A stretch of DNA of 64,000 bases from an uncultured Methanosarcinales archaeon (GTDB lineage: Archaea > Nanobdellota > Nanobdellia > Woesearchaeales > DSVV01), in assembly GCA_964390375.1 (NCBI GenBank), contig CAYMIF010000001.1:45460-109459 (forward strand), in the 5' to 3' direction. This document shows, one piece after another, positions 10,101-50,774 of this stretch (positions are counted from its first letter, which is position 1; the number at the start of each line of letters is the position of its first letter). The notes under the pieces were generated by a model. The model was given only the letters and a program-made list of their open reading frames with translations, had not been told where the DNA came from and made no database searches. A program made the translations under genes and the position numbers.

Positions 10101-10238
10101 CTTATAATCATCTATCTCAAGCACAACCAGCTCTTTTGGTTCTGATTGTTCAGATAATGAGAAAGATGATATGAGGATGATTACTGTAGCTAACAGTATG
10201 CTTAATAATACTATTTTCAATCCTCTTTTCTTATCCAT
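4110..10238 (-). CDS. giant (2042 aa) surface glycoprotein with a signal peptide, two tandem ~500-aa repeats and a LamG/concanavalin-like domain
   Basis: One uninterrupted ORF. The N-terminus is MDKKRGLKIVLLSILLATVIILISS (a signal-like sequence). NxS/T sequons are extremely dense. There is an internal duplication (DYPPYWSGNSSF...YWTSHANDS... and DYPPKWSANKTD...YWKSYANDS...). A LamG-like segment reads FDYDGVSQYWLL...GWHLITAIFDGG...FNGRIDETRILN. Confidence 0.7.
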   Translation of the reverse strand: MDKKRGLKIVLLSILLATVIILISSFSLSEQSEPKELVVLEIDDYKTSINIYLDGHFSYKDLTFSGTASDGQVIYLLNPRKEGYKIYAEMPIRANISSIEFILNHGGRYYTVDWIDKIIDRRNKEQEKPKIQKDNIVAEVQQGPEQVIDTQEKYDPEIKIDSEDNERQESQDTDDDTEPKSTFKITIVEKDLEKLIEVTPDLSRKLLNRTQEIVLFSEDNFYYRTELTKQDNILKSSIPKELNISNITLILYYEDSIMTYDNMSSVLYRDERKYSDPDKIRPKEQITSDFKIHSENITEGTFILKHQVSLEYDGLAKSIPAYFKLPLEKKESFIKRQTNPEDQNKIDSIRLRNLTSAVKQIDFRSIEYKGAINLGIEDVEIEDYIQSYAIDPAMLNFTNATVTATAKGTELYKCKEWNFTAQKCFGSWVKIMDIKPGQNYTFLLTPDDPAFGEMRIQKCVAQELASASGSWNVACDNAYPGETLYYEDAAREIHKISKSGTTWAGVRINSTNSSVTDCDSIDSVTICYKWWAATTRTQNCDISIDSDYGNSYTAVSAACPGTAEPAVMTCVNVTASENWQCGNFFGETPTGAIAKSEIQHSGSAGPGNYDVIWDVLYFNVSYSPPPDYPPYWSGNSSFTPIYYSETTDSTFNITWEDYYGLNTSLFESNFSGTKQNYTMTNQSANIFNYTSILPAGSFYWTSHANDSIGQWNLSDKWYFTILRADPGLTISADPTDTATYGTQTNITCSLNTTQITPALYRNSTLISGTSDIQTLGAGSYNYTCNISQTQNFTYNSSWTLLNVTKAAGVVALYLNGSRNNRTIQLGTSLNISADFISGSGILQVYNNNTLIFNSTLPSENMTFFNTEGFYNITALYNGNQNYTSDSETWWVNATTQEIPDYPPKWSANKTDIVSIFKPSMNSSFNITWTDDVKVEDVLFESNFSKVPTNYTMNEITLNVYNFQQVFPAGSFYWKSYANDSAGNINMTDVWYFTIARADPNLTLSAQPGWNTTYSNQTNISCKGADSQITPLLYRNASPVANPDVQTLDVAEYLYICNSTQTQNYTSSEIQATLNISRADSSIELTLNGYRSNITAENNTFVTIQATLLKGDGNITIYQNGSLLYNGTSPYQENILFNNTSMNNITAYFHGTENYNPGNETWWIDIVPELPLSLQMTINNCSAEDAATAAGTWGDACDRKYPGPALFYDDIIVENHPVEKSGYWAGIRTNTSNNTIENCILVESVQFCYKWWSDTSDIMTCDISVDADQGANYTAVTNTCPGTTEPSGITCVDITSDEDWTCGVFFGSNATSAIAKSELVHSGSGGPGQYEIYWDAFYFNVTYYEDRTPPASVTNLDETKTSKTWIIWNWTNPSDSDFYRTEIWINGSFYSNLSQNYTNISDLAPNTIYEIGTRTSDIYNNLNELWINDTAQTQEDQPPAAFLVNPENNSRIASSSVGLQARVEDNDTELLCLDIFSSDAAESSDDLLFRLCDISNNTLISYTWDAPVLNMTAETEALWHFDNRSEHGENSTLVKNFASSAENHDRTCTTNCPTFIENGGKFAGAFDYDGVSQYWLLNESFFNSPFDNKTVQIWIKPDALAGIQTIYEEGGRSDGFALRLNSTILEFATSGGGTKTLITTNYTDTSGWHLITAIFDGGNMSIFLDGLLKNTTTASYSSISSHADEGGIGATVNQDSLGSAGPNYFNGRIDETRILNSSRTTDSIRDDADLSDNTYHWFTRTSDDLSDVNSSLWQFTLDSSIPLIKDVWPEEDEFIIFSIIEITANVTDNTGIDNVYANITWNKNTLIVNMTDNDLDDVYNATFDFANSSGSYNITVYANDTSGNKNTYSTWFRIQKESYNYYYGNATGRLALGYILTTLKNMTEGQILNVYAADADSVFSVNDLQAIGRKKDGTTASQDFLDMDIVLNISNRSDSINATWSIDSTIPKEMQNITLYGLPIYNVSMINSTENSSSFKTGILWDTSDSLDDEFDIAEEEDLIFYTSYNSGQTGSYGTYGFEIRIPEKLNSYKGFTEEIVFYVEIR

Positions 10239-26235: not shown

Positions 26236-27414
26236 ATGATGAAAAAGAAGCTATTGGACCTGATGAGGGGAATGGTGCCTCTGAACAAGAAACTCTCAGA
26301 ACAACTTGATTCGGTTTCGGGGCTGCTCTCTTCGAATGAACTAAAAGAGCTGCGCAGCAATCTGAAGACCAAAAGAATCAGGATGGAGGCTGCTTCGTTT
26401 GATGTGTCACCTGATATGGTAGCTGAACCCCCTGCTTATCCCAGGTTCCTGACAAAGCATGATGAGCTAGCAGGCCTGTGCGAGAGGATAAACAAGAAGA
26501 TCTCTTCAGGCATAAAGAGCAGGGTATTCTCAGAATTCTCAAAAAAAGCAAAAGATGTGATACCTAAGTTCATAGGCCGCGGAATTGTCGGGCTTGATCT
26601 TGTAAAATGTGCATGCGCGATACAGCTGTTTTCAAAGGACCCTTTCCATATACTCTGTCTTGGGGACCCGGGAACTGGCAAGACTGACATAATCAGGTCT
26701 GCTGCCGGCCTGCATCCGATCAATGCATTCGGACTTGGCTCAGGCACATCTGGCTCCGGCCTGACAGTCACTGTAAGGGGCAATGAGGTGCAAAAAGGAC
26801 TGCTTGCCATGGCAGACGGCGGAATCTGCGCTATCGACGAGCTGAACCTAATGGAGCAGAAAGACCGGGCATCGCTGTATAACGCTATGGAGAAAGGATT
26901 CTTTACATATGACAAAGGAGGGAAGCATTACAAGTTCGATGCCAGGATACGCGTTCTTGCAACAGCTAATCCTAAAGGTGACCGCTTCGACGGAAAGACC
27001 GTCAATACTCTGAAGAAACAATTGCCTTTTGATCCTGCACTTCTAAGCAGGTTCCATTTGGTTTTCCTTATCAGGAAACCCAATCTTGAAGAATTCATGA
27101 AGATAAGCAAGAAAATCGTCTCAGGCAAGAAGAAGAGCGAGCAGCCAGGAAACATCAGTTTCATTTCTGACTATATAGAGTTCTGCCAGGAATTGGAAGT
27201 GGAGATGCCTGCCAAATATTCTGAGCAGATAGTGAATTTCATCGCAGAAATCAAGAAGAACGAAGAGAAATATCTGATCGAAATCTCTCCGAGAACTGTT
27301 GTCGGGCTTTCGCGAATGGTCATGGCTGCTGCCAGGATGAGGTATGACAAAACAGTCAAGGATGAGGATGTGTGGCTAGTCATGGATATACTTAAAAGAA
27401 GCCTGGAAATCTGA
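26236..27414 (+). CDS. MCM-family AAA+ ATPase lacking the N-terminal OB/Zn DNA-binding domains (mini-MCM)
   Basis: Walker A ILCLGDPGTGKTD. Walker B GICAIDELNLM. MCM-specific DRASLYNAMEKG (compare DRTSIHEAMEQQ). Sensor-1 VLATANP. Arg finger LLSRFHLVFLI. Lid EISPRTVVGLSRMVMAAARMR. The 392-aa protein has only about 100 aa ahead of the ATPase core. Confidence 0.7.
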   Translation: MMKKKLLDLMRGMVPLNKKLSEQLDSVSGLLSSNELKELRSNLKTKRIRMEAASFDVSPDMVAEPPAYPRFLTKHDELAGLCERINKKISSGIKSRVFSEFSKKAKDVIPKFIGRGIVGLDLVKCACAIQLFSKDPFHILCLGDPGTGKTDIIRSAAGLHPINAFGLGSGTSGSGLTVTVRGNEVQKGLLAMADGGICAIDELNLMEQKDRASLYNAMEKGFFTYDKGGKHYKFDARIRVLATANPKGDRFDGKTVNTLKKQLPFDPALLSRFHLVFLIRKPNLEEFMKISKKIVSGKKKSEQPGNISFISDYIEFCQELEVEMPAKYSEQIVNFIAEIKKNEEKYLIEISPRTVVGLSRMVMAAARMRYDKTVKDEDVWLVMDILKRSLEI

Positions 27415-31205: not shown

Positions 31206-31327
31206 GGCTATTATGAAATCCTATACTACTACGTTTTTACTGCGTAAAAACTTCGCCTGGCCCCGAGAATATTTATTTCATAAATATTCTCTCTCGTGGC
31301 ACAGACGCATAGGATTTCATAATAGCC
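31206..31327 (+). mobile_element. 122-bp MITE-like element, variant 1, directly abutting the variant-2 copy
   Basis: Termini GGCTATTATGAAATCCTATAC...ATAGGATTTCATAATAGCC. Flanked by ATAAAAAAG at 31197-31205 and 31328-31336. It is nearly identical to the reverse-oriented copy at 50627-50748. Confidence 0.65.
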
Positions 31328-31373
31328 ATAAAAAAGTAAAAATTTATATATCTTAAAACACATTTATTTTATC

Positions 31374-31992: not shown

Positions 31993-32106
31993 GGCTCCAT
32001 CTAATAAATACTACTCCGCTTGCTGCGCAAGCTTCGCCTGGCCACGGGAAGCTTTATTGCATAAACCTTCCCTCCCTTGGCACAGACGCATTTATTGGAT
32101 GAAGCC
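31993..32106 (+). mobile_element. 114-bp MITE-like element, variant 3
   Basis: Termini GGCTCCATCTAATAAATAC / GCATTTATTGGATGAAGCC (16 of 19 bases match). Perfect 9-bp direct repeats CACAGAAGA at 31984-31992 and 32107-32115. The core is hairpin(GCTTGC..GCAAGC)-CGCCTGGCC-hairpin(GGGAAGCTTTAT..ATAAACCTTCCC)-TGGCACAGACG. Confidence 0.55.
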
Positions 32107-32232
32107 CACAGAAGAGCAAAGTTTTTAAATGAGGGCCAAACTTAGGAGGAAATAAAGCATCCTATGCTGCCGAAGCATCATTCAAAGATTTGCGGTCGCT
32201 TCGGGTGCGTTGCATAGGAATACTTTAAATAG

Positions 32233-32336
32233 GCCCCCGTAGCATAGTAGCTATTGCGGCAGACTTGTATCATTTTGAATCATAGATTCGTTTTTTAGAA
32301 ATCTGCAGGTCGTGGGTGCAAATCCCACCGGGGGCT
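32233..32336 (+). tRNA. intron-containing tRNA, anticodon read as TGT (Thr), with a ~31-nt intron after position 37
   Basis: Acceptor stem GCCCCCG/CGGGGGC. Anticodon stem GCAGA/TCTGC. Loop CTTGTA followed by intervening sequence 32270-32300. T arm GTGGG-TGCAAAT-CCCAC. Discriminator T. No encoded CCA. The isotype call depends on where the intron is placed. Confidence 0.7.
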
Positions 32337-32349
32337 TGCTATCTTCTTG

Positions 32350-35300
32350 CTATGCCTTCTTTAAAGATTCATATACCTTGTGCTTATCCTTTGCATTGCT
32401 GAGATATAAAGCATCCTTTAAATGGGTCTTTGACCAGCCCTTCTTCAGAAGATTTTCTGCCAATTTCCTGTGATCCTTGGTCTTGGTGTTGAAAAGGAAG
32501 ATTATTGGCTTTATGTTCTCCAGCTCCTGGGTATATCTTTTCACTGCGTCCTTTGTGAAGTAATGATGCTTGAGTATCCTTTCAGAGCCGTGAGAATGCA
32601 GGATGTTGGTGTATGCATAGTATTTGCTGAACTCCGAGTATATCTGGCTTGCAGCCTGGGGGCTGAGCCCTGCTTTTGCTATCTCTTTTCCAAGCATCTT
32701 CGGCGAACAGTGGACCCTGAGCAGGCTGAAGGCAACATCGTCCGGGTCCTTTTGGACCATGAGCTCCTGGATCATCTCAGAAAGAACCTTTGAAAGCCCC
32801 TTGCTGTAATATTCCTTGTATCCTTCATCTATCAATATGGTGTATGATATGAGGTTGATGTCATATGAATGATGTATCAGATAGTTTATCAGATGATGAG
32901 GGTCTGCCTTCCTGTCCATGCCTTTGTCAAGCTCTTTTTTTATCCTCTTCTGCTGGTCCTTGTATCTTTTTTGTCTTAATTTTTCCGGCGTGAACCTGGA
33001 ATGATGGAGGAAGTTTGCTATCTCAGACTTGTCAAAAAGCCAGATGTGATACTTGTGGAACCCAAACTCGTTGTTGGCATGAAGCTCGCTTATGAATGCA
33101 TAGAGCATGTATATGTGCAGCCAGATGTAGACTGCTATCTTCATCAGATCCAGGATGTAGTCAAAAAGCAGGTAGTTGAGAGTGAGATCGGGTATGACCT
33201 TGCTGTAAAGTATGATTGAATGATAGATGAAATTCTTCAGGAAGAACAGTGTGTAGACGAAGACCAGCAGTATCGCTATCGTGACAGTCTTTATCTCGAT
33301 GATCTTTTTATGCTTCCTTGTCACAAGATATGCCCATATCCCGACAGTCGCTGAAATCAATGAGAGTGCAAGGATGTTGAGATTGAAGCTAATACTGCTG
33401 AAGTACATGCTGAAATAGAACAGGATTGCTATTGCAGGGATGACATGAGTTATGATATCCATCAGGTGGTTGTGCTTTCTTATCATGTGGGCCACTATGA
33501 ATACAAGCAGGATGCCTGCAATTATCATCCCCGGGATGTCAGGCCTTATCGCTTCTGGCAGTGTCTTTATTACAATCTCGTTTCCGACCACAAGATTGCT
33601 GTTGATCTTCTTTATCTGAAATATCGGCGTGAGTATGAAGAAGACCAGGGATACTGCAAATGATATCAGTGTCCATCTTGAGAACGAAAGCCTCTTTGGC
33701 TCTACCGTGTCCTGGGCATTGCGGTAGAATATGTGTGAGTAGATCTTGAACGGTATGTAGAACAGGATGAGGATCGCGATCATATTCATTACATAAATGA
33801 GGTATGTTGCCAGAGGGTCTGCGGTGCTCTGCATAATGAGGTCGTAGACAGACGGAGACTGGGCAGTAAAGCCCTGTGCGTATATCTCTGGCTGAGGCAT
33901 GAATGGCAGGAGGCTTGAGAGTATGAAGATTATGAATCCAAGGCCGATTATGTAGAATATCCTGATGGAGATGGATACCCAATATGTTCCCTCGTCCTGG
34001 AGCATGACGATTATGTCGCGGACAAAATCCTCGATAGCGTTGAATGCTTCAGTAAGCGAACTGAGGGTGAGTTTTCTGTATCTTATGACATGGTAGATCA
34101 TGAATATCAGGGCGACTGAAATGAGGATTATGGAATCAGTCGCTATGGAGAATCCTTCGATTATCATCTGGAAGAAGATGAAGAACGTGATTATGATGAT
34201 TATGATGGTCTTTATGATCCTGAATGGCGAATAATTGCCTTTGAGAAGGTTGGATGCGAACGAACTCTTGTCCTTGTTCCTTATTATGAGCCTGTATGAC
34301 AATATAGAGATTATGACAAACAATGAGATCAGGGCGATGCCTGTGTAATCCTGGGTCATGTCCATCAGATACAGGATGGTCTTTACAGCCCTTCCGAAGA
34401 ATCCGTACTTTCCGAAGAGGCCTATGAATATCTCCTCAAGCGCCGGCAGCCACCAAAGAGAGCAGAATATGAGGATCAGGGCAGTCGTTATCCTGCTCCT
34501 CTTTCCGAAGAGACGCTCTGAGATGTTGGTCTTTAGTATGAGGATGAATGCCAGCAGAAGCGACATCATCTTCTTGACAAAGTCCAGGTCTCCGAGCATG
34601 CCCATGATGTCGAGGATGCTCAAGGCCAGGAGAAAGATGAAATAGAGCAGGATGAATTCCCTTATGCTCCAGACCAAGGGCTTTAATATAGGGTGCTTAT
34701 TTGCGTGGTCTTTTAGCTTTCCTATGTTTGTTGTGTTGACCAGGACTATTATAACTATGAATACAAGGAAGAAATATGCAAGGGTGAGGTAGTCCAGTAG
34801 CTTGGGAGGCTCGCCGAATCTTGTGACAATGCTTGCAACCAGGGCAGTGACTGTCACCTCTTCGTCACAGTTTATGTCCTCGACCTGCTTTATTTTAAGC
34901 TTCAGCTCCATCTCATCGTCAATCTCCTCGAAATGCACGAATATCTCTGGGTCAGCTTTTGTTATCGTGAAATTGAAGTTCGCGTCAATGACCTGCTCTG
35001 CATATTCATGGGTTAGCATCTCGACTAAGCATTTGGGGATGTGGATTGGCAAACCTACTCCTACAGCTTTCTTGTTGTCGTCCCTGGGCTTTATCTTGAC
35101 TGTGGCCTCAGCAGAGCCGTTGTCATAGATGACTGTTGTGGTGTTGGTCTGGATAGCCTGCTTTGCGAGCTCCTTTGCCTTGTATATCTCGAAATCATCA
35201 AGATAATCATCTATCCTGCTCTGCTCCTTTATCATGAGCTCATAACTGATCCTTCCTATCTCTTCCTCAGTCATGGACTTATTTATCGTGTAGTTGGTGT

Positions 35301-38300
35301 GGATCTCCTCGTAAGGCCCGAGGTCTCCGAGGGCAAATTCTATCTTTGGATCCCGCTGGATTATGGTGAAATTGACATCTGAGGAGATGTGGTCTGTTGT
35401 GTTGATTATGTCCTTTGGTATCGTTATCCTCAGCCTGGCCTGAGCTTTTTTCAGCGGTGTCGGGTTCCTGATAGTATCTATTATCTCTGTGTGGTTCTCG
35501 TGAACCCTGAATCTTGTGTGCTTCTTTATCTGGTTTGAGAGCTCGTAGGTGATGGAGTAGTTCTGTATTATGAATGCAGGCGGTTCTTTGATCTTCCGGC
35601 CAGAAGAATCGCTGTCATCATCCTGCTCTTCTGGGGTGGTCTCTTCTGCTGGCTCTTCTGTCTGGGGTATGATGTCTGGCGAGCCTCCTCCGAATGAACT
35701 GCTGCCGGAGCTGACAGATGAGCCTTCGTCTTCATCTTCATCTTCACCTACACATGTGCAGGTGTTTGTGCCTGAATGAGCCCATGTGCCTCTGTTTCCG
35801 CAGACTCCGCCTGTTATTTTTCCGCCATCTTCGTCATCACAGTCGAAGATGTCTATGTTCGTGCAGATCCCGGCGTAGGCTATACCTATCTGGCCGTCGT
35901 CGTCATTGTCCCAGTCCTCGTCTGCCAGCTGGTCGCAGTCATTGTCGTATGAGTCGCAGATCTCTGCTGTACTGTAGCTTACCTGCGCTGACCAGGCGCT
36001 CTTTTGGTGGCTTGAGTCGATGGACTGGACCTGGACATAGGCGCATCGCGGAGGTATGTCGAGAGATATCTCCTGCAAAAGCTGCATGTTTCCGAAGTAG
36101 CCCTGAGGCGGGTTGGTCGAAAGAGGGTTAAGGCTAGAGAGGATGTTTTGGTTGGTCGGGCTGGAGCCTATCTTTAGGTTATAGTAAAGGACAGGGGATT
36201 CTGCATCTGAGCCTGCGGTCCAGTTGATTTTCATGCGGCTGTTGTTGTATGAGATGTTTACTGCTGTCGGCGGAGCGGGGAGCGTGTTGTTCTTTAGTTC
36301 ATTTGCATCAGAGCGATAGATGCGGGTGTTGGCAGACTGGGATTCGTTGAAGCCGGTGTAGAAGATGTCGAGGTTGTTGTCGTTGTTGTAGTCGGCGAAT
36401 GCGAGGGAGCCTGCCCATGATCCGTCGAAGGTGTTGAATGTGTCTTCGATGAAGGTTGTGCCGTTGCTGTAATAAAGTTTTGTTATTGAATCTGTCCATG
36501 TGCCTCTTGTCGTACCTGCTAATAATAGGTCAAGAAGGCCGTCGTTATTGTAATCTCCCAGTGTGAGGCTTCCTTTCCAGACTGCAGTCAGGTTCTGGGA
36601 CCACGCCGGCGAATATGTGAGGTTATTTGCGTTGTTTTGGTATACCTTTGCTATCTTATCTGTACAGTTAGCTGGAGAGCTGGTTCCTGAACTGCATCCA
36701 ATGAGAACAATGTCCATGTATCCGTTGTTATCTATGTCACCTGATGTAATGTGGCCGAATTTCACTCCTGTCAGGTTTTGGGTGTTTGTGAATGATGCTG
36801 CTTGATTGTTCATGTATACTTTGGTCGTGAATTCGTCATCTGCATTGCCATACCTGCCAGAGACAATGATATCTGTGAAATTGTCATTATCAAGATTTAC
36901 TGCGTTTACTGAACATTCTGTGACACCCATGAAATTTATCACTGATTTTGAGAAGGAATCTCCGTTGTTTGTGTATAATGATGTCGAATAGGCGGCACTA
37001 TCGCTGGTTCCACAAGTGATGAGGTCTATGAGCCCGTCATTGTTGTAGTCCAGCCATGCGTGGGAGGAATAATATACAGGATTTATTCCGTGGGAAGAGT
37101 CATCATAGGTCCAGCCGGATTGGTATCTGATGATGTAGAGTTTTTTTTCAATTGGATCAATCTGTCTTTGACCTGAGGTGATTATGTCGTATGTTTCGTC
37201 ATTGAAAGGATCTGCCAAAGAGATTCCACCGTACATTAGGTCAGGGAGATTTATCTCATCATGAGGTGTGAAAAATGCATTGGTGTTTGAATAGACATAT
37301 CCTTTGGTTGTTGTTTTATCCAATACTTCTGGACCTGATATGAAAATATCATGATAATGATTTGAATCCAGGTCAGCTAACAATAATGAGCTTCCGAATG
37401 ATGTACCATACACTCCCTGCTCATCCAGGTCGTATGCTGTGGAATTCGGCTTGACTGTTATCGAAAATGTGTGGTTCAGTGTCTCGTATCCAGACATGTT
37501 GCATCTGATCGTGACCTGCTTGTCTCCAAGGGATGTGAAATTGTAATCAATAGTATGGACTGCTCCTGTGTAGGACATGTTGTGCCATGTGCTATCCAGG
37601 CTTATGGTGCAGTTTTCTGATATCGGAAGGTGGGATGTCGTGTTTGAGTAGTTTGCAGTAAAGGTGACAGTTTGGTTTATCATGAGGCGGGATGGTGAAT
37701 AATCTGTCTCTAGAAGGCTGTTTGATGCAGCAGAATAATTGCTGAATCCAGAGACATTGAATGTGAGATTTCCATTAGTGTAATCAATCACTGTGCAGTC
37801 TGAGCAGACCTGGTCGTTTCTGAGGATTGCCGGAATCGCAGAGAAATTCAGGTTGAATATAGTTATGTTGGCTCTTCTGTTCAGGCCCTGGGCAGCGGAA
37901 ACATCTATGTCTATATTATTCTGTGAGATGTTCACTATCGAGTTTAAGTCTAGGTTGGAGACGTCGATATTTTCATTAAACATTATCATGCCGAATCCTG
38001 GCAAGCCGATCGATGCGGCTGAGACATTGGATACATCAGAGACTTCAGAGAAGTTTGTTGTGAGGGAGTTGTAATAGTTTGAGAATATCGGTTCAGAAGA
38101 CCTGTTGAGAGTGATTGTGAGGGCTGTGTTGGATGAGTGCGTGTAATCCATGTTGTATTGGTTGTATCCGGATCTTTGGAAGTAGATGGTGTAGTTTTGT
38201 ATTGAGGATGTTCCGTTGTTCCTGTCGCTTGTGAGGACAAGCCTTGCCTTGCCTGGACTGTCTGTTGCGGTGTCGTAATGCATTCGGTTGTCTGTATCGT

Positions 38301-40623
38301 ATGCCTTGACTGCAGTTCCAGCGAGAAGTGAGCCGGTCTGGTTCATTACTGTGAGATCAAGGTAATATCTTATCAGAAGAGAGTTGTTCTGTATGTTCAG
38401 ACTGGAATATGTGGTGTTGGTTATTGTGTTGTTGATTCCATAGTTTGTTATCGCATCAAGTGTTGAGTCTGTTATCGTGCTCTGGGTTGAATTGAATATG
38501 ATCGGCGAGCTTATCGTGGATGATGTGGCATTCAATGTACCATCCACTGTTATGGAACTGGCTGTGAGCGTGGAATTTATGAGTGTCATGCTGTTGTTTA
38601 TCTTAATGTCTGAGGTCACGACAATGTTTTGATCCACATAAGTGCAGGTGTTTGCTATTGTCCAGGAGCTGTTTGTGGGCTGGCAGGAGTCAGGATAATA
38701 GGTCTGCACAGGGCTCCAGCCTGAGATGGAATAGGCAGCATCAATGCTTTGCACCTGCCAGTAGTAGGTAGTATTTTCAGAGATGTTGAGTGCATACCAT
38801 TCCTGCTGCATGGCATTTCCAAGATAACAGTAGTTTGAGCCAGAACAGCCTCCGAATTTCCCTGATAATACGTCTCCCTGGCCAGGTGATGTGCCTACAC
38901 GAAGATTGTAGTAGAGATGGTCGGTCGTGTCGTCAGTCGCTCCGCTCCAGGTGAAGTTCAGAAGATTTGTGTATGATGTGGTGAATGCAACTGGTGCAGA
39001 GGGTCTTGTGTTGCTGCGGTATAAGGAGAAGTTGTTGGTGTAGAGGATTGTCTTGTCATTCCCTGTTGTCAGGATGTCGAGGTCTCCGTCTTCATCATAG
39101 TCTGACATGGCAATCGATCCTTTTCCTCCGAGGCCATTGTTTACTGCCTCGAAATCAAGGCTTCCTTTTCTGATGAAATGGGTGTGGTTGTTCTCGTAGT
39201 ACAGGATTATGTCTGAGCCGTTGTATCCGGCAAGCAGAAGATCCATGTAGCCGTCGTTGTTGAGGTCTCCGAGGAAACTGGAGCTTTCGATAATTCCCTG
39301 CAGCTCCTGTGCATGCTCGAACTGGTTGTTCTGCCATCTGTAGACAATGGTCGTGTATGCGTCTGTTCCATTGTAGCCGGAGACTACTATGTCGAGATCT
39401 CCGTCTTGATTGATATCTCCTACTGTGGCAGAACCACGGTAGGTGTCGTTGAAGGATTGCTGTTCTGTGAGGGTGAAGCCGGAGTGGGAGTAGAGCTTCA
39501 TTTGGGCTCCGGATGGGAGTTCGTTGGTAGATCCCTGTGTCAAAAGGATATCATTTATTCGTATGTGATGACTATAAGTCAATCCAGTGAGACTAGTGAT
39601 ATTGGAGAAATTTATTCTGTTATTCTTATCTATATTATGTCTTATTATAACTATGGTTTCTTGCTTTAGTCCGGACTTTGCCAAATCATTATAACCATCT
39701 TTGTCATAATCAAATATTAGCATCTCACCATTAACTGTTCCATCAAGTTCCTGGAATTCAGAATAATTGTTATTGATGTTCTTAAAGATTTTTAGAAAAT
39801 GGTTTGAAGGAAAACCGCTTTCATGATGGTTATTTATCATCAAGTCAAGATCCTCGTCGTTGTCAATGTCTGCAAAGGCTATGTTTCTTTCTTCTCCTGT
39901 TGTGATTGATATGCCAGAATCCTTGGAGAAGCTGCCAGGCGCATCCTGCTCATAGAAGAAAGTGCTTGTTCCGGTCATGAAGAAGTCCAGGTCATCGTCA
40001 TTGTCGTAATCTGCCCAGGCAACGACTGATTTTGAGCCAATATCATCGAAGTTGGTCTTGGAAAATGTATCAAGTGGATTTGGGAAAATCTCAAAGCTTT
40101 CGTTGGTCTTTGTTGTGTTGTATATGCCGGTTGAGTTGCATATCACTGAATATGAATAATTACCTGCAGGAAATGTCCTGTTGTAGACATAGATGCTTCC
40201 GTTGGAGCGCATAAGGACATATGCAGGACTATCACTGAAATTTATGTAGCACTTGTTCTGGTCGTGGTCTGTGAGGATGGTTCCGTCAGTCTGGGTGTAG
40301 ACTGCGACAAAATGATGCTGTTCCCAATGGTAGGGGTGGAAATTCTCTGCGTAATTGTCTGCAAGCGGGATATATTCAGAGAGGAATGTCGTTAGGTTTG
40401 AGTTGTATGTGTAATTCTCTGCTGATGCCAGGACACTGTAGTCGTATCCTATCAAGTCTTCTGAGAAGGGAAATATGCCTATCAATGAAGAGATGAATAT
40501 CATTGCGGCAATGAACAAGAAGAACCATTGCTTTTGGGATATGACAGCCTGATTTTTAGAAGAGATTGTATTAACAAAGCTTTGGTCTTTGACCCTCCCC
40601 TCTTCTTTGCACCTTTTTTTCAT
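32350..40623 (-). CDS. giant (2757 aa) protein. It has an N-terminal signal/anchor, multiple FG-GAP/integrin-alpha-like beta-propeller repeats, an acidic linker, a large polytopic membrane domain with about 18-20 TM helices, and a cytoplasmic C-terminal region
   Basis: Repeated D-x-D-x-D-G-x-x-D motifs (DYDNDDDLD, DIDNDEDLD, DINQDGDLDIVV, DLNNDGYMDLLL, DYDEDGDLDIL, DYNNDGLLDLLL and others). Dense NxS/T sequons. A D/E-rich linker. A long hydrophobic block (LAYFFLVFIVIIVLV ... IAVYIWLHIYMLYAFI) precedes a ~330-aa soluble tail. Confidence 0.7.
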   Translation of the reverse strand: MKKRCKEEGRVKDQSFVNTISSKNQAVISQKQWFFLFIAAMIFISSLIGIFPFSEDLIGYDYSVLASAENYTYNSNLTTFLSEYIPLADNYAENFHPYHWEQHHFVAVYTQTDGTILTDHDQNKCYINFSDSPAYVLMRSNGSIYVYNRTFPAGNYSYSVICNSTGIYNTTKTNESFEIFPNPLDTFSKTNFDDIGSKSVVAWADYDNDDDLDFFMTGTSTFFYEQDAPGSFSKDSGISITTGEERNIAFADIDNDEDLDLMINNHHESGFPSNHFLKIFKNINNNYSEFQELDGTVNGEMLIFDYDKDGYNDLAKSGLKQETIVIIRHNIDKNNRINFSNITSLTGLTYSHHIRINDILLTQGSTNELPSGAQMKLYSHSGFTLTEQQSFNDTYRGSATVGDINQDGDLDIVVSGYNGTDAYTTIVYRWQNNQFEHAQELQGIIESSSFLGDLNNDGYMDLLLAGYNGSDIILYYENNHTHFIRKGSLDFEAVNNGLGGKGSIAMSDYDEDGDLDILTTGNDKTILYTNNFSLYRSNTRPSAPVAFTTSYTNLLNFTWSGATDDTTDHLYYNLRVGTSPGQGDVLSGKFGGCSGSNYCYLGNAMQQEWYALNISENTTYYWQVQSIDAAYSISGWSPVQTYYPDSCQPTNSSWTIANTCTYVDQNIVVTSDIKINNSMTLINSTLTASSITVDGTLNATSSTISSPIIFNSTQSTITDSTLDAITNYGINNTITNTTYSSLNIQNNSLLIRYYLDLTVMNQTGSLLAGTAVKAYDTDNRMHYDTATDSPGKARLVLTSDRNNGTSSIQNYTIYFQRSGYNQYNMDYTHSSNTALTITLNRSSEPIFSNYYNSLTTNFSEVSDVSNVSAASIGLPGFGMIMFNENIDVSNLDLNSIVNISQNNIDIDVSAAQGLNRRANITIFNLNFSAIPAILRNDQVCSDCTVIDYTNGNLTFNVSGFSNYSAASNSLLETDYSPSRLMINQTVTFTANYSNTTSHLPISENCTISLDSTWHNMSYTGAVHTIDYNFTSLGDKQVTIRCNMSGYETLNHTFSITVKPNSTAYDLDEQGVYGTSFGSSLLLADLDSNHYHDIFISGPEVLDKTTTKGYVYSNTNAFFTPHDEINLPDLMYGGISLADPFNDETYDIITSGQRQIDPIEKKLYIIRYQSGWTYDDSSHGINPVYYSSHAWLDYNNDGLIDLITCGTSDSAAYSTSLYTNNGDSFSKSVINFMGVTECSVNAVNLDNDNFTDIIVSGRYGNADDEFTTKVYMNNQAASFTNTQNLTGVKFGHITSGDIDNNGYMDIVLIGCSSGTSSPANCTDKIAKVYQNNANNLTYSPAWSQNLTAVWKGSLTLGDYNNDGLLDLLLAGTTRGTWTDSITKLYYSNGTTFIEDTFNTFDGSWAGSLAFADYNNDNNLDIFYTGFNESQSANTRIYRSDANELKNNTLPAPPTAVNISYNNSRMKINWTAGSDAESPVLYYNLKIGSSPTNQNILSSLNPLSTNPPQGYFGNMQLLQEISLDIPPRCAYVQVQSIDSSHQKSAWSAQVSYSTAEICDSYDNDCDQLADEDWDNDDDGQIGIAYAGICTNIDIFDCDDEDGGKITGGVCGNRGTWAHSGTNTCTCVGEDEDEDEGSSVSSGSSSFGGGSPDIIPQTEEPAEETTPEEQDDDSDSSGRKIKEPPAFIIQNYSITYELSNQIKKHTRFRVHENHTEIIDTIRNPTPLKKAQARLRITIPKDIINTTDHISSDVNFTIIQRDPKIEFALGDLGPYEEIHTNYTINKSMTEEEIGRISYELMIKEQSRIDDYLDDFEIYKAKELAKQAIQTNTTTVIYDNGSAEATVKIKPRDDNKKAVGVGLPIHIPKCLVEMLTHEYAEQVIDANFNFTITKADPEIFVHFEEIDDEMELKLKIKQVEDINCDEEVTVTALVASIVTRFGEPPKLLDYLTLAYFFLVFIVIIVLVNTTNIGKLKDHANKHPILKPLVWSIREFILLYFIFLLALSILDIMGMLGDLDFVKKMMSLLLAFILILKTNISERLFGKRSRITTALILIFCSLWWLPALEEIFIGLFGKYGFFGRAVKTILYLMDMTQDYTGIALISLFVIISILSYRLIIRNKDKSSFASNLLKGNYSPFRIIKTIIIIIITFFIFFQMIIEGFSIATDSIILISVALIFMIYHVIRYRKLTLSSLTEAFNAIEDFVRDIIVMLQDEGTYWVSISIRIFYIIGLGFIIFILSSLLPFMPQPEIYAQGFTAQSPSVYDLIMQSTADPLATYLIYVMNMIAILILFYIPFKIYSHIFYRNAQDTVEPKRLSFSRWTLISFAVSLVFFILTPIFQIKKINSNLVVGNEIVIKTLPEAIRPDIPGMIIAGILLVFIVAHMIRKHNHLMDIITHVIPAIAILFYFSMYFSSISFNLNILALSLISATVGIWAYLVTRKHKKIIEIKTVTIAILLVFVYTLFFLKNFIYHSIILYSKVIPDLTLNYLLFDYILDLMKIAVYIWLHIYMLYAFISELHANNEFGFHKYHIWLFDKSEIANFLHHSRFTPEKLRQKRYKDQQKRIKKELDKGMDRKADPHHLINYLIHHSYDINLISYTILIDEGYKEYYSKGLSKVLSEMIQELMVQKDPDDVAFSLLRVHCSPKMLGKEIAKAGLSPQAASQIYSEFSKYYAYTNILHSHGSERILKHHYFTKDAVKRYTQELENIKPIIFLFNTKTKDHRKLAENLLKKGWSKTHLKDALYLSNAKDKHKVYESLKKA

Positions 40624-40708: not shown

Positions 40709-41620
40709 TTAGTTTTCCTTCGGGAATGCGTCTCTCATCCTTCTCTTTCCGATGATTGCAGATCCGATTCCCAGGAGTGCAAGCAGACCTGAGCCTGGCA
40801 CTGGAACCACTACCTGGTCGTCGTATGACAATGTATCGACATTTGGCATTGTTCCTTGAGTAGCGAATCCTTCGTAGTTGAAATCTGTCCTTCCGAGTAT
40901 AACATCCTGTGGGTCGAATGTGAAGTTGATGTTGTAGCTGTCTCCAGGATTTACATTTCCAATGATGTCCAGGATATTGGTTGTTGGATCATAGGATGAT
41001 GTCCATCCGCCCGGAAGCTGAAGGCTTGACTCGATGAATCCGAAGTCGTATGATTCTCTTGACTCTTGGCCGGGGTTGGCAAATGTCAATAATCCATCAC
41101 CCAAAAAATTTTGATCCTTGTCAGCTCCAAGTTTTAGTCCATAAAAGAATCCATTTTGTGCATCATCATCATAAGCACTCATGTTCCATGTCTGCGTAAC
41201 ATCGTCGTATGCAGGTCTCTGATAAGTGATGTCAGCTGCTGCTGTTGCTGCCAGAAGACCGATGCCTGCAAGTGCTCCTGCGGCTATTGCCTTTTTTCCG
41301 AAACTTGGTGTTGCTGGCTGATCTGCTTCGTCGACTATCTCGTCGACAGCCTGGTTCGGCCTGTATTCATGACCGCTCTGAGCTGCGTATGCCCTGTCTG
41401 TCTCGACTGCCCTTGCTGCATGGACAAGATGCCTTAGGTTTATTGTTCCGTCATCCTTAACCAGGTCCTTGCCCAGCCTTCCCATGGTCTGTGGGCTGAC
41501 GCCTGCATCTTCCATCCTCTGTGCGTAAGCTGAAAGAGCATCGTATACTCCCCTAGACATAGAGATGGTCATTGATCCATCGTTGTTCGGTTGCGCTATT
41601 GATTGTGCTGCATATGCCAT
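40709..41620 (-). CDS. protein with a PEP-CTERM-like C-terminal sorting signal (archaeosortase/exosortase-type substrate)
   Basis: The C-terminus VPVPGSGLLALLGIGSAIIGKRRMRDAF is a short Pro-containing motif, then a TM helix, then an Arg-rich tail. There is an internal hydrophobic segment KKAIAAGALAGIGLLAATAAA. The gene looks GC-richer than its neighbours by eye. Confidence 0.45.
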   Translation of the reverse strand: MAYAAQSIAQPNNDGSMTISMSRGVYDALSAYAQRMEDAGVSPQTMGRLGKDLVKDDGTINLRHLVHAARAVETDRAYAAQSGHEYRPNQAVDEIVDEADQPATPSFGKKAIAAGALAGIGLLAATAAADITYQRPAYDDVTQTWNMSAYDDDAQNGFFYGLKLGADKDQNFLGDGLLTFANPGQESRESYDFGFIESSLQLPGGWTSSYDPTTNILDIIGNVNPGDSYNINFTFDPQDVILGRTDFNYEGFATQGTMPNVDTLSYDDQVVVPVPGSGLLALLGIGSAIIGKRRMRDAFPKEN

Positions 41621-42198: not shown

Positions 42199-42789
42199 AT
42201 GGTAGGATTAAGTGTTAATGAAAGGAAAGCGCTTCTGGTGCTGCTAAAGGATTTTACTAGCTACTATAATGCTAATTCATTGGCAAATGAGATAGGAATC
42301 AGCCATGTGGGAGCACAGAAGATGTTTAGGCGGTTTGAACAAGATGGCGTGACTGTTTCAAAGAAAATCGGGAAGTCAATAGTGCATAAGATCAGGCTGG
42401 ATGATGATTACAATTCTAAGCTGCTGTCCTTTCTCTTGGCTGATGAAGCAAATAATTTCAGAAGGTGGAGAGAGGAATTCAGAAGCCTGTCTACGGGAAA
42501 CAGGATTGTCATGATGTTTGGCTCAGCACTGAAAAACTATAAGGAGGCAAGGGATATAGATCTCATGCTGGTCTTGCCTTTTGATCAGTCAACAGATATT
42601 AATAAAGCAGTAGATGAAAAAAGAGAAATCCTTCCGAAAAAACTGCATGTAATAAAGCTGAGGATAGAAGATTTCCAGAAAAATCTTAAAAAAAAGGAAG
42701 ATGTATTCGTAGACGTTATCAAGAATGCAGTAGTACTCTATGGACAAGACCAGTTCGTAGAGGTGCTTAAAACTGTCACAGGCTTCTAA
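42199..42789 (+). CDS. wHTH plus minimal nucleotidyltransferase (MNT) domain protein
   Basis: N-terminal HTH (ANSLANEIGISHVGAQKMFRRF). The MNT signature is MMFGSALKNYKEARDIDLMLVL (GS...D.D motif). Confidence 0.55.
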   Translation: MVGLSVNERKALLVLLKDFTSYYNANSLANEIGISHVGAQKMFRRFEQDGVTVSKKIGKSIVHKIRLDDDYNSKLLSFLLADEANNFRRWREEFRSLSTGNRIVMMFGSALKNYKEARDIDLMLVLPFDQSTDINKAVDEKREILPKKLHVIKLRIEDFQKNLKKKEDVFVDVIKNAVVLYGQDQFVEVLKTVTGF

Positions 42790-42793
42790 TCAT

Positions 42794-43291
42794 ATGAAAT
42801 GGTGCCTGAAAAAGGCTCAGCGTGAGATTCTGGAATGTGAAAAGAAAGGCCTTAGAAAGAAGCACAGAGGCCTACTGAAAACCAAACCAAATATCTCTGA
42901 AGCAAAAAAGCATATACTGAAAGCCAGACATAATTTTCGTGTAGTGATTATCCTCGAGAAGGAGGATATCTTTGATTGGTCTGTCAATGCAGTTTTTTAT
43001 ACTATCTATCATTGTTTCTTGGCTATTGCTTTTAGATTCGGCTATGAGAGCAGAAACCAGTCTTGTACCATCTCTTTGATCCAATGCTTGATTGAAAAGG
43101 GTATGATAGATCTTGATATGAAATTCGTCAATCTCCTCAAATACAATGAAAAGGAAAACAGTATCATAGATATGAGGGAAGAATATACATATGGGATTGA
43201 GATTGATATCGCTGATAATAAGATCATGAAAGAACTTATCCAAGACTGCAGGGAAGTTATCGATATGGCTATGAGGATAGTGCATGATTAA
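42794..43291 (+). CDS. HEPN-like domain protein
   Basis: 165-aa helical protein immediately downstream of the MNT gene. AKKHILKARHNF...AVFYTIYHCFLAIAF is HEPN-like. Confidence 0.4.
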   Translation: MKWCLKKAQREILECEKKGLRKKHRGLLKTKPNISEAKKHILKARHNFRVVIILEKEDIFDWSVNAVFYTIYHCFLAIAFRFGYESRNQSCTISLIQCLIEKGMIDLDMKFVNLLKYNEKENSIIDMREEYTYGIEIDIADNKIMKELIQDCREVIDMAMRIVHD

Positions 43292-50626: not shown

Positions 50627-50748
50627 GGCTAATATGAAATCCTATGCGTCTGTGCCACGAGAGAGAATATTTATGAAATAAATATTCTCGGGGCCAGGCG
50701 AAGTTTTTACGCAGTAAAAACGTAGTAGTATAGGATTTCATATTAGCC
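50627..50748 (-). mobile_element. 122-bp MITE-like element, variant 1, reverse orientation
   Basis: It is the reverse complement of the 31206-31327 copy apart from a few substitutions. Flanked by TGCTTGTCC (50618-50626) and TGCTTGTTC (50749-50757), which match at 8 of 9 positions. Confidence 0.65.
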
Positions 50749-50774
50749 TGCTTGTTCACAATGTTTTTATACTG

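What the first reader, a model, noticed from the sequence alone, without database searches (positions are those of the whole stretch)
32350..40623. 2757-aa protein combining FG-GAP beta-propeller repeats with a ~20-helix membrane domain
Most giant archaeal surface proteins are anchored by a single helix or a sortase-like signal. This one has two blocks of integrin-alpha-type FG-GAP calcium-binding repeats and sequon-rich beta-rich regions. After an acidic Ser/Gly linker comes a very large polytopic membrane domain and a ~330-aa cytoplasmic tail. The architecture suggests an extracellular binding module coupled to a transporter-like or signalling membrane machine. I could not match the membrane domain to a known transporter family by eye. 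A tRNA gene and MITEs abut its 3' end.
Basis: seen in the sequence. Interest (0 to 1): 0.55.

Follow-up and report, generated by a model that had tools for sequence, protein, structure and literature searches.

The report
Giant archaeal adhesin on novel membrane base
A 2757-residue surface protein of a tiny symbiotic (DPANN/Woesearchaeota-type) archaeon carries integrin-like binding domains on a conserved 15-helix membrane module; that module matches no described protein family and no solved structure, and in related archaea it is also encoded as a separate gene.

Summary
The ORF is real: 32350..40623, minus strand, 2757 aa. It has two FG-GAP propeller blocks, 69 N-glycosylation sequons outside the cell and an acidic Ser/Gly linker. 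It has about 15 membrane helices rather than 20, and a tail of about 245 aa rather than 330. It is not a fusion artefact, because about 70 divergent homologues keep the same layout.

The C-terminal third is a conserved module. It consists of a juxtamembrane (JM) stalk of two Ig-like beta-sandwiches, TM1, and a 14-helix domain (TMD). An exhaustive HMMER search found 699 cluster representatives. About half are giant proteins with varied ectodomains, and about half are stand-alone TMD proteins of roughly 490 aa.

The TMD has no Pfam or NCBIfam family. It also has no PDB fold neighbour, although the AlphaFold model is good (pLDDT 80, pTM 0.79). It is therefore not GT-C/OST, YfhO or RND/MMPL.

Stand-alone TMD genes lie next to JM-anchored surface-protein genes in 3 of 8 loci and next to sppA in 2 of 8. 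One is fused to a CPBP protease.

RadA places the window in Woesearchaeota. The most likely reading is a modular host- or substrate-binding adhesin rooted in a dedicated membrane socket. The biochemical role of the TMD is not resolved.

The parts
32350..40623 (-). Complete ORF, 2757 aa plus stop codon
   Evidence: Collinear homologues of 2650-2800 aa at 25-28% identity.
40465..40527 (-). N-terminal hydrophobic signal or anchor, aa 33-53, preceded by a K/R-rich 32-aa N-terminus
   Evidence: Hydropathy peak 2.46. Homologues start with ordinary signal peptides.
40054..40464 (-). N-terminal sequon-rich beta-rich domain, aa 54-190
   Evidence: 9 sequons in 137 aa. No significant Pfam hit.
39019..40053 (-). 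FG-GAP beta-propeller block 1, aa ~191-535
   Evidence: Pfam FG-GAP_3/FG-GAP. Six calcium-loop motifs at aa 205, 252, 305, 403, 453 and 508.
38674..39018 (-). Fn3-like domain following propeller 1, aa ~536-650
   Evidence: Aligns with the equivalent post-propeller segment of P0002. Weak Ig_Rha78A_N hit. The domain assignment is inferred.
37429..38673 (-). Sequon-rich middle region, aa 651-1065: N-x-S/T-rich repeats, a CarboxypepD_reg-like domain (758-839), a Nup98/S59-like domain and an Ig-like domain
   Evidence: 29 sequons in 415 aa. Pfam hits.
37723..38091 (-). Nup98 autopeptidase (S59)-like beta-sandwich, aa ~845-967, ending in FNVSGFSNY
   Evidence: Pfam PF04096 scores 34.2 bits against a 28.4 cutoff on the sub-sequence. 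PDB Nup98 matches have E 0.005. A [GS]FS[NT]Y end is conserved in 12 homologues.
36304..37428 (-). FG-GAP beta-propeller block 2, aa ~1066-1440
   Evidence: Pfam. Five calcium-loop motifs at aa 1192-1411. 31% identical to the single propeller of P0002.
35989..36303 (-). Fn3-like domain 2, aa ~1441-1545
   Evidence: Conserved with P0002. The domain assignment is inferred.
35749..35988 (-). Cys-rich acidic MopE-like segment, aa 1546-1625
   Evidence: 7 Cys. Weak Cu-binding_MopE hit. The same motif is significant in the JM-only homologue P0146.
35596..35748 (-). Acidic Ser/Gly/Pro linker, aa 1626-1676
   Evidence: 18 D/E in 51 residues and no sequons. An equivalent low-complexity linker is present in P0002 and in L003-L012.
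34804..35595 (-). Juxtamembrane (JM) stalk, aa 1677-1940. Two Ig-like beta-sandwiches separated by a helix. Motifs: IPKD...DP.I.F and IPKCLVE...DPEIF...C, with invariant C1865 and C1919
34717..34803 (-). TM1 (aa ~1946-1966) and a short K-rich cytoplasmic loop
33085..34716 (-). Polytopic membrane domain (TMD), TM2-TM15, aa 1970-2513. Conserved D2014-x-x-KK, S2021, E2156, D2163, Y2248, Y2277, N2280, P2291, G2347, E2349 and Y2403
   Evidence: Family HMM E 5.7e-126. AlphaFold pLDDT 80.3 and pTM 0.79. Conservation. No PDB neighbour. No Pfam family.
32353..33084 (-). Cytoplasmic helical tail, aa 2514-2757. K/R-rich, no sequons, with His-containing start and a 'KKGWSKTHLKDAL'-type G[WY] motif
   Evidence: The tail is conserved in P0001 and P0004. 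No family hit.
32232..32337 (+). Convergent tRNA gene with a 31-nt intron. It is a neighbour, not part of the protein.
   Evidence: Rfam 54.2 bits. ARAGORN -i.
31993..32106 (.). MITE-like palindromic repeat copy. It is a neighbour, not part of the protein.

Best explanation
Shown:
- This is one real gene of a Woesearchaeota-type DPANN archaeon, encoding a modular cell-surface protein.
- About 1900 residues lie outside the cell. They comprise two calcium-loop FG-GAP propellers, Fn3/Ig-like domains and a Nup98-like sandwich, and they are heavily sequon-decorated.
- This ectodomain sits on a conserved C-terminal module: a two-sandwich juxtamembrane stalk (JM), TM1, a 14-helix membrane domain (TMD), and a basic helical tail predicted to be cytoplasmic.
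- The module is shared by hundreds of proteins whose ectodomains differ (FG-GAP, cadherin/Ig-like, LamG, PKD).
- In other genomes it is split into a JM-TM1 surface protein and an adjacent stand-alone TMD protein.

Inferred mechanism:
- The TMD is the dedicated membrane partner, or socket, of the JM-TM1 stalk.
- Its conserved polar residues lie in loops and helix ends that the hydropathy/positive-inside topology places on the outer face (D2014/KK, E2156/D2163, Y2248, Y2277/N2280, the G2347 hairpin), so they would face the stalk base.
- It roots a long, swappable adhesive ectodomain firmly in the membrane, for attachment to a host cell or substrate.
- The tail and its G[WY] helical motifs offer cytoplasmic contact points.
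- In this protein's clade several residues that are invariant in stand-alone TMDs (His, Trp, Asp, Lys) are replaced. Here the TMD therefore probably acts mainly as a structural anchor, not through whatever ancestral activity the family has.
For: Gene is real and archaeal:
- Single ORF.
- P0002 is 31% identical over 1293 aa, running from the propeller to the TMD.
- Seven or more collinear representatives of about 2700 aa.
- The best named RadA hits are all Woesearchaeota or Nanoarchaeota.

Topology:
- 15 helices with alternating K/R-rich loops.
- 69 sequons outside and 0 in the tail.

Module and family:
- 699 representatives at E <= 1e-3.
- Among the top hits, 69 are JM+TMD, 85 are TMD-only and 7 are JM-only.
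- Ectodomains vary.

Split versus fused:
- JM-bearing genes sit directly beside stand-alone TMD genes in L015, L016/17 and L021, which is 3 of 8 independent loci.
- The L016 partner ends JM-TM-'QGYTRAQIRQTMVNQGWSENEI'. This is the same cytoplasmic motif found after TM1 and in the tails of the giants.

Conserved predicted outer-face residues: combined with the topology.

Relaxed conservation in the window clade.

JM fold is Ig-like and adhesin-like.
Against: - No direct evidence of binding, of a host, or of a JM-TMD contact. The two-domain AlphaFold model has pTM of only 0.55, and I could not inspect coordinates or PAE.
- Stand-alone TMDs are almost invariant at His, Trp, Pro, Gly, Asp and Glu positions. 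That pattern looks more like an enzyme or transporter site than a passive anchor.
- Links to SppA and to a CPBP protease fusion point towards protein processing or biogenesis.
- A single helix would be enough to anchor a protein, so 15 helices need a further reason.
- 5 of 8 stand-alone loci have no detectable JM neighbour.
Confidence: 0.45

Rival explanations
1. The TMD is a membrane-embedded processing or biogenesis factor for JM-anchored surface proteins. It could be a protease, a transferase or a maturation/quality-control enzyme acting at the outer membrane face. In the giants it is fused in cis to its client.
For: - Stand-alone TMDs are invariant at His2225, Trp2157, Pro2291 and Gly2347, and nearly so at Asp2163, Glu2156 and Asp2047.
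- sppA (TIGR00706, 176.7 bits) overlaps the TMD gene start by 4 nt in L016/17. An S49/NfeD gene sits upstream in L022, although the two TMDs are only 33% identical.
- P0276 fuses the TMD to a CPBP/Rce1-like intramembrane protease.
- A transglutaminase-core JM protein and a serpin lie beside other copies.
Against: - No match to any protease, GT-C, sortase or ligase family or fold.
- No conserved Cys or Ser nucleophile was seen.
- The window clade has lost the invariant His, Trp, Asp and Lys, so this protein would probably be inactive.
- The SppA link is seen in only 2 of 8 loci, and the CPBP fusion is a single case.
Confidence: 0.22
2. The TMD is a channel or transporter. It would move host-derived material (lipids, nutrients, ions) across the symbiont membrane at the contact site made by the ectodomain.
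For: - 12-15 helices with conserved intramembrane polar residues (S2021, D2047, K2060, N2152, H2225 and N2280 in most of the family).
- The lineage is DPANN. From general knowledge, DPANN archaea depend on hosts for lipids and metabolites.
Against: - No internal repeat.
- No ATPase or solute-binding partner in the neighbourhoods.
- Several of the polar residues are lost in this clade.
Confidence: 0.12
3. It is a transmembrane receptor. Ligand binding by the propellers would be relayed through the TMD to the cytoplasmic tail, analogous to integrins, adhesion GPCRs or polycystin-1.
For: - A giant adhesive ectodomain, a Nup98-like (autoproteolysis-type) sandwich, a polytopic domain and a conserved 245-aa tail with repeated G[WY] helical motifs.
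- A small wHTH gene lies directly upstream in 5 homologous loci.
Against: - Stand-alone TMDs have no cytoplasmic domain at all, so relaying signals cannot be the core function of the family.
- No kinase, HAMP, cyclase or other output domain.
- GPCR matches are partial and not significant.
Confidence: 0.1
4. The ORF is an artefact: two genes joined by a sequencing or assembly error at the linker.
For: In L007 the N-terminal half (1188 aa) and C-terminal half (1496 aa) are two overlapping adjacent genes. Split forms therefore exist, but the break is at about aa 1065, not at the linker.
Against: - Continuous frame.
- 69 of the top hits carry an ectodomain, JM and TMD in one chain.
- The linker junction is conserved in P0002, P0004 and L003-L012.
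- The full long form recurs in seven or more clusters.
- An 86% identical fragment, P0001, spans the linker-to-tail region.
Confidence: 0.01

Closest known systems
Prokaryotic FG-GAP/VCBS integrin-type beta-propeller surface proteins (Pfam PF13517/PF01839; see PMC3192720)
   Same: It has two propeller-length blocks with canonical calcium loops, it is extracellular, and it is presumably adhesive. NCBI names a homologue 'VCBS repeat-containing protein'.
   Different: Those proteins are secreted, lipid-anchored or single-pass. Here the propellers are only one of several interchangeable ectodomains on a conserved JM + 15-TM module.
Integrin alpha subunits
   Same: FG-GAP propeller followed by Ig-like stalk domains, a membrane anchor and a cytoplasmic tail.
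   Different: Integrins have one TM helix, a GFFKR tail motif and an obligate beta subunit. None of these was found here, and there is no homology beyond the propeller.
Adhesion GPCRs and polycystin-1 (analogy only, from general knowledge)
   Same: A very long adhesive ectodomain with an autoproteolysis-type domain, joined to a polytopic membrane domain and a cytoplasmic tail.
   Different: No fold or sequence relationship. The Nup98-like domain lies mid-ectodomain, not next to the membrane, and lacks the catalytic His.
   Same: Helix number (12-15) and acidic residues in extracytoplasmic loops.
Giant surface proteins of DPANN and CPR episymbionts (e.g. nanohaloarchaeal giant proteins, PMC10266531; diversified symbiosis surface proteins of Nanoarchaeota, PMC6142677)
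   Same: Same lineage type, very large size, adhesive domains, and a presumed role in host contact.
   Different: Neither the conserved JM + polytopic TMD module nor its stand-alone form turned up in my four library searches.
Exosortase/archaeosortase systems, including exosortase-CPBP fusions (recalled from memory; a lead, not a test)
   Same: A polytopic membrane protein genetically paired with surface proteins that share a conserved C-terminal membrane-proximal module. There is one fusion to a CPBP protease.
   Different: No PF09721 hit and no conserved Cys. About 13 helices rather than 8. Here the 'signal' is a 260-aa folded stalk, not a short tripartite tag.

Membership tests
FG-GAP / VCBS beta-propeller repeat proteins | Multiple FG-GAP repeats scoring above the Pfam thresholds | tested here: met
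   PF13517 scores 115 bits (cutoff 26.9) in 7 stretches. PF01839 scores 59.6 bits (cutoff 22.1).
FG-GAP / VCBS beta-propeller repeat proteins | Calcium-binding Dx[DN]x[DN]GxxD loops | tested here: met
   11 canonical loops in two blocks.
Integrin alpha subunit | Single C-terminal TM helix with a short GFFKR-type tail | tested here: not met
   15 C-terminal helices and a 245-aa tail with no GFFKR.
Integrin alpha subunit | Heterodimer with a beta subunit (betaI/VWA-like) | not tested
   No candidate was seen among the neighbours scanned, but the genome was not searched.
GT-C glycosyltransferases / oligosaccharyltransferase / YfhO | Profile match to STT3/AglB, YfhO, PMT or ArnT families | tested here: not met
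   No Pfam or NCBIfam hit for the window protein or for 10 stand-alone relatives. No recurrent family among 55 relatives.
GT-C glycosyltransferases / oligosaccharyltransferase / YfhO | GT-C membrane fold | tested here: not met
RND / MMPL transporters | 12-TM fold with internal duplication and two large extracytoplasmic loops | tested here: not met
   No profile or fold hit. No internal repeat. Extracytoplasmic loops are <= 29 aa.
Nup98/Nup145 S59 autopeptidase domain | Pfam PF04096 domain match | tested here: met
   34.2 bits against a 28.4 cutoff on aa 652-1060, and 28.6 bits on the whole protein. Only profile positions 19-95 of 148 are aligned.
Nup98/Nup145 S59 autopeptidase domain | Catalytic His-Phe-Ser at the cleavage site | tested here: not met
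   The window has G-F-S (FNVSGFSNY). Eleven of the homologues have [GS]FS and one has SWS; none has His. The Nup98 HFS motif is recalled from memory.
Exosortase / archaeosortase | PF09721/TIGR profile and a conserved Cys-Arg-His | tested here: not met
   No profile hit. No conserved Cys among the family's conserved columns.
Unnamed JM + TMD module family (defined here) | JM stalk with IPK...DP.I.F twice and two invariant Cys | tested here: met
   JM HMM E 4.7e-67. C1865, D1891, P1892 and C1919 are invariant in 37 sequences.
Unnamed JM + TMD module family (defined here) | TMD motifs: GD.D..KK..S, E(W)....D, the G-x-D/E hairpin, and Y2403 | tested here: met
   TMD HMM E 5.7e-126. The window keeps D2014, KK, S, E2156, D2163, G2347, E2349 and Y2403, but has G for W2157 and I for H2225, and has lost D2047 and K2060.

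The most novel reading that the evidence does not exclude
The polytopic domain would be the founding member of a new, DPANN-centred class of membrane machine with a fold not yet seen in solved structures. It would partner with JM-anchored surface proteins, and its invariant His/Asp/Glu/Trp site would perform a new activity at the outer membrane face. That activity could be maturation or release of giant adhesins, or a conduit at the symbiont-host contact. The giants would then be adhesin-machine fusions that mark the physical interface used by Woesearchaeota to exploit their hosts.
Probability: 0.25. Interest if true: 0.85.

Novelty: new variant of a known kind. Interest (0 to 1): 0.62.

Why it matters
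Woesearchaeota and other DPANN archaea are abundant and largely uncultivated, and they are thought to live attached to other cells. How they hold on and what passes across the contact are open questions.

This finding defines a concrete and widespread module: 699 clusters at 50% identity. It carries interchangeable adhesive ectodomains, and its membrane part has no described family and no solved-structure relative. The split and fused gene forms give a ready pair for co-expression, structure determination and mutagenesis.

If the membrane domain has an activity, it would be a new type of membrane enzyme or conduit. If it is a socket, it would be a new way of rooting giant adhesins in an archaeal membrane.

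In practical terms, these proteins are currently annotated only as 'VCBS repeat-containing' or 'hypothetical'. The JM and TMD profiles could be turned into family models.

Tried and rejected
- **Pfam and NCBIfam.** I scanned the whole protein, sub-regions, 10 stand-alone relatives and all 55 members of alignment A2. Nothing was found for the JM, TMD or tail.
- **PDB sequence search.** The C-terminal profile gave no match at E <= 1.
- **AlphaFold database search.** The library was not available.
- **Internal-repeat test of the TMD by hhalign.** Negative.
- **Rhomboid-like and CPBP-like readings.** I considered a rhomboid-like reading of 'GISG...H' and a CPBP-like reading of 'E...H...D'. I rejected both because the Ser is not conserved and the motifs do not fit.
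- **Word-indexed homologue search.** It was nearly blind to this family, giving 3 hits and then 1. Only the exhaustive HMMER search revealed the family.
- **Exact look-up of the window protein in public assemblies.** Not on record.
- **Naming the organism behind the 6.15-Mb contig that carries P0029.** Failed.
- **Methanosarcinales assignment.** PAS/GAF/DUF835 and gyrase genes nearby first suggested it, as did four MAG labels. I rejected it in favour of Woesearchaeota on the RadA hits and on synteny.
- **Literature searches.** Four searches found no description of the module.
- **Default ARAGORN.** It missed the intron-containing tRNA.
Full report
**1. The observation**

The minus-strand ORF 32350..40623 encodes 2757 residues without interruption. 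Pfam finds FG-GAP_3 (115 bits, seven stretches) and FG-GAP (59.6 bits). A motif scan finds six canonical Dx[DN]x[DN]GxxD calcium loops at aa 205-508 and five at aa 1192-1411. These define two propeller-length blocks.

N-glycosylation sequons number 69 between aa 54 and 1940, three in the membrane block and none in the tail. The linker at aa 1626-1676 has 18 acidic residues in 51 and is rich in Ser and Gly.

Kyte-Doolittle hydropathy gives one N-terminal hydrophobic segment (aa 33-53) and 15 C-terminal helices between aa ~1946 and 2513. Short K/R-rich loops alternate regularly with acidic or neutral loops. The ectodomain is therefore outside and the 245-residue basic tail is inside. AlphaFold secondary structure agrees. 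Everything else is as described.

The tRNA is real (Rfam, 54.2 bits, 32233..32336 on the plus strand). It is convergent with the ORF, ends 13 nt from its stop codon and carries a 31-nt intron. That intron explains why default ARAGORN missed it.

A ~115-bp element with 19-bp inverted ends lies at 31993-32106. It has two more copies in the window.

**2. Not an artefact, and which organism**

P0002 (1524 aa) comes from an archaeal contig next to the split rpoB and rpoA genes. It aligns at 31% identity over 1293 residues, from the second propeller through the Fn3-like, Cys-rich, linker and stalk regions into the membrane domain. P0001 is an 86% identical fragment that spans linker to C-terminus.

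Representatives of 2650-2800 aa (P0029, P0025, P0039, P0062 and others) are collinear with the whole window protein at 25-28% identity. In one genome (L007) the N-terminal half and the C-terminal half are two overlapping adjacent genes. The break is at about aa 1065, not at the linker.

The window's RadA has its best named hits exclusively in Woesearchaeota, Nanoarchaeota and Nanobdellota. Four related loci are labelled 'uncultured Methanosarcinales'. One of them, L007, shares extensive flanking synteny with the Woesearchaeota loci L004 and L009. Another, L010, shares the upstream HTH gene and one further flanking ORF with the Woesearchaeota locus L012. For those two the labels are doubtful; L006 and L011 were not resolved.

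**3. Anatomy of the conserved C-terminal module**

An exhaustive HMMER search used a profile of the last 1081 residues. It found 699 cluster representatives at E <= 1e-3 and 120 at E <= 1e-30. Local HMMs divide the top hits into three groups:
- 69 proteins with stalk plus membrane domain;
- 85 with the membrane domain only, typically 480-610 aa;
- 7 with the stalk only.

The ectodomains in front of the stalk differ between homologues:
- FG-GAP (P0002, L004, L007, P0012, P0085);
- cadherin/Big_9 and sequon-rich Ig-like arrays (P0004, L003, L010, L012);
- LamG (P0041);
- PKD, in stalk-only proteins.

The propellers are therefore one of several cargoes on a common base.

**4. The membrane domain is an undescribed family**

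No Pfam or NCBIfam model matches it in the window protein or in ten stand-alone relatives. None recurs among 55 relatives scanned at E <= 5. A profile search of PDB sequences finds nothing at E <= 1.

**5. Clues to function**

(a) Conserved residues. D2014-x-x-K-K, E2156, D2163, Y2248, Y2277/N2280 and a beta-hairpin with an invariant Gly (G2347) all lie in loops or helix ends that the hydropathy/positive-inside topology places on the outer face; I did not inspect model coordinates. In the 72 stand-alone proteins, His2225, Trp2157, Pro2291 and Gly2347 are invariant. Asp2163, Glu2156, Asp2047 and Asn2280 are nearly so. In the giants conservation is relaxed. In the window/P0004 clade His, Trp, Asp2047, Lys2060 and Asn2152 are replaced.

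(b) Gene fusion and fission. In 3 of 8 independent loci the gene directly beside a stand-alone membrane-domain gene encodes a stalk-bearing surface protein (L015, L016/17, L021). The L016 partner reads transglutaminase core, stalk, TM helix, then 'QGYTRAQIRQTMVNQGWSENEI'. This is the same G[YW] helical motif that follows TM1 and recurs in the tails of the giants. The giants therefore look like end-to-end fusions of such pairs, which implies that stalk/TM1 and the membrane domain work together.

(c) Other associations. sppA (TIGR00706, 176.7 bits) overlaps the start of the membrane-domain gene in L016/17. An S49/NfeD gene precedes it in L022, although the two membrane domains are only 33% identical. 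One Nanoarchaeota protein (P0276) fuses the membrane domain to a CPBP/Rce1-like intramembrane protease.

(d) Cytoplasmic side. Stand-alone proteins have no cytoplasmic domain. The core role of the family is therefore in the membrane or at its outer face, not in relaying signals to the cytoplasm.

**6. Interpretation**

Shown:
- a real, conserved, modular surface protein of a DPANN archaeon;
- a previously undescribed stalk plus polytopic module;
- split and fused gene forms;
- no known fold.

Inferred as most likely (about 0.45): the polytopic domain is the dedicated membrane socket for the stalk/TM1. It roots a long, exchangeable adhesive ectodomain used for attachment to a host or substrate. 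The tail motifs provide cytoplasmic contacts. In this clade the domain has lost part of the family's invariant site, so it probably serves structurally.

Rivals:
- a processing or biogenesis enzyme for stalk-anchored proteins (0.22; favoured by the invariant His/Asp/Glu and the SppA/CPBP links);
- a contact-site channel or transporter (0.12);
- a receptor (0.10);
- an artefact (0.01).

**7. Comparison with known systems and novelty**

The propellers are ordinary FG-GAP/VCBS repeats (PMC3192720 documents integrin-type propellers in prokaryotes). Giant adhesive proteins are a known feature of DPANN symbionts (PMC10266531, PMC6142677).

What is new is the base. It is a conserved two-sandwich stalk plus a 13-15-helix domain that belongs to no Pfam or NCBIfam family and resembles no solved structure. 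It is also encoded separately next to its presumed partners. Four literature searches found no description of it, and public names are 'VCBS repeat-containing protein' or 'hypothetical protein'.

I rate the finding a new variant of a known kind (a giant archaeal adhesin), with a real chance that the membrane domain is something categorically new.

Noticed in passing
window 32232-32337 (+): The tRNA gene has a 31-nt intron. Default ARAGORN misses it. ARAGORN -i calls it Ser(tga) with the intron inside the anticodon. A canonical 37/38 intron would give Thr(UGU), and the mature length of about 75 nt has no long variable arm. Its identity is unresolved.
   Followed up: partly
window ~31212-31330, 31993-32106, 50640-50760 (-): Three copies of a ~115-bp palindromic MITE-like element. 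It has 19-bp inverted ends and a conserved core (CTTCGCCTGGCC..TGGCACAGACGCAT). It could equally be a structured small RNA.
   Followed up: partly
window 37723-38091 (-), aa ~845-967: A Nup98/Nup145 S59 autopeptidase-like domain (Pfam 34.2 bits against a 28.4 cutoff) sits inside an archaeal surface protein. It ends in GFSNY where Nup98 has HFSKY. The [GS]FS[NT]Y end is conserved in 12 homologues, and none has the catalytic His.
   Followed up: partly
window 40709-41620 (-): The upstream 303-aa gene has a central TM helix and ends in VPVPGSGLLALLGIGSAIIGKRRMR. This looks like a PEP-CTERM or archaeosortase-type sorting signal, but no NCBIfam or Pfam model matched.
   Followed up: partly
window 4110-10238 (-): A second giant ORF (2042 aa) with a Laminin_G_3 domain. 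It lacks the JM stalk and the TMD.
   Followed up: partly
L007 2936-6499 and 6489-10976: In this relative the window protein's N-terminal half and C-terminal half are two overlapping adjacent genes. This is either a natural split or a frameshift in the MAG.
   Followed up: no
L003 3983-4306, L005 3854-4156, L010 4319-4579, L012 1040-1366, L019 9721-10020: A conserved ~100-aa winged-helix-like gene sits immediately upstream of, or overlaps, the giants with Ig/cadherin-type ectodomains. It is absent upstream of the window gene.
   Followed up: no
L016 4099-7041, L017, L022 3426-7839: The gene order RDD, SppA/S49 (NfeD-like), stand-alone TMD is conserved between members that are only 33% identical.
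   Followed up: partly
P0276 (752 aa, Nanoarchaeota MAG): The TMD family domain is fused to a C-terminal CPBP/Rce1-like intramembrane glutamic protease carrying the EExxxR, FxxxH and HxxxD motifs.
   Followed up: partly
L006, L007, L010, L011: These contigs are labelled 'uncultured Methanosarcinales archaeon'. L007 is strongly syntenic with Woesearchaeota loci, and L010 shares two flanking ORFs with one. Both are probably mislabelled DPANN bins; L006 and L011 were not resolved.
   Followed up: partly
L020 (contig ctg38569c, 6.15 Mb, local GC 31%): A full-length 2759-aa homologue (P0029) sits on a 6.15-Mb contig, far larger than any DPANN genome. The organism could not be identified.
   Followed up: partly
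homologues, just after the last TM helix (e.g. L003, L004, L007): A His-rich stretch (HHxMHHIHY..H....H) follows the last helix in most giants and may bind metal. It is only partly kept in the window protein (aa ~2517-2545).
   Followed up: no
window 26236-27414 (+), 42199-43291 (+): A short MCM-like ATPase (392 aa) and a HEPN gene pair lie near the tRNA-flanked region, which hints at mobile-element content.
   Followed up: no
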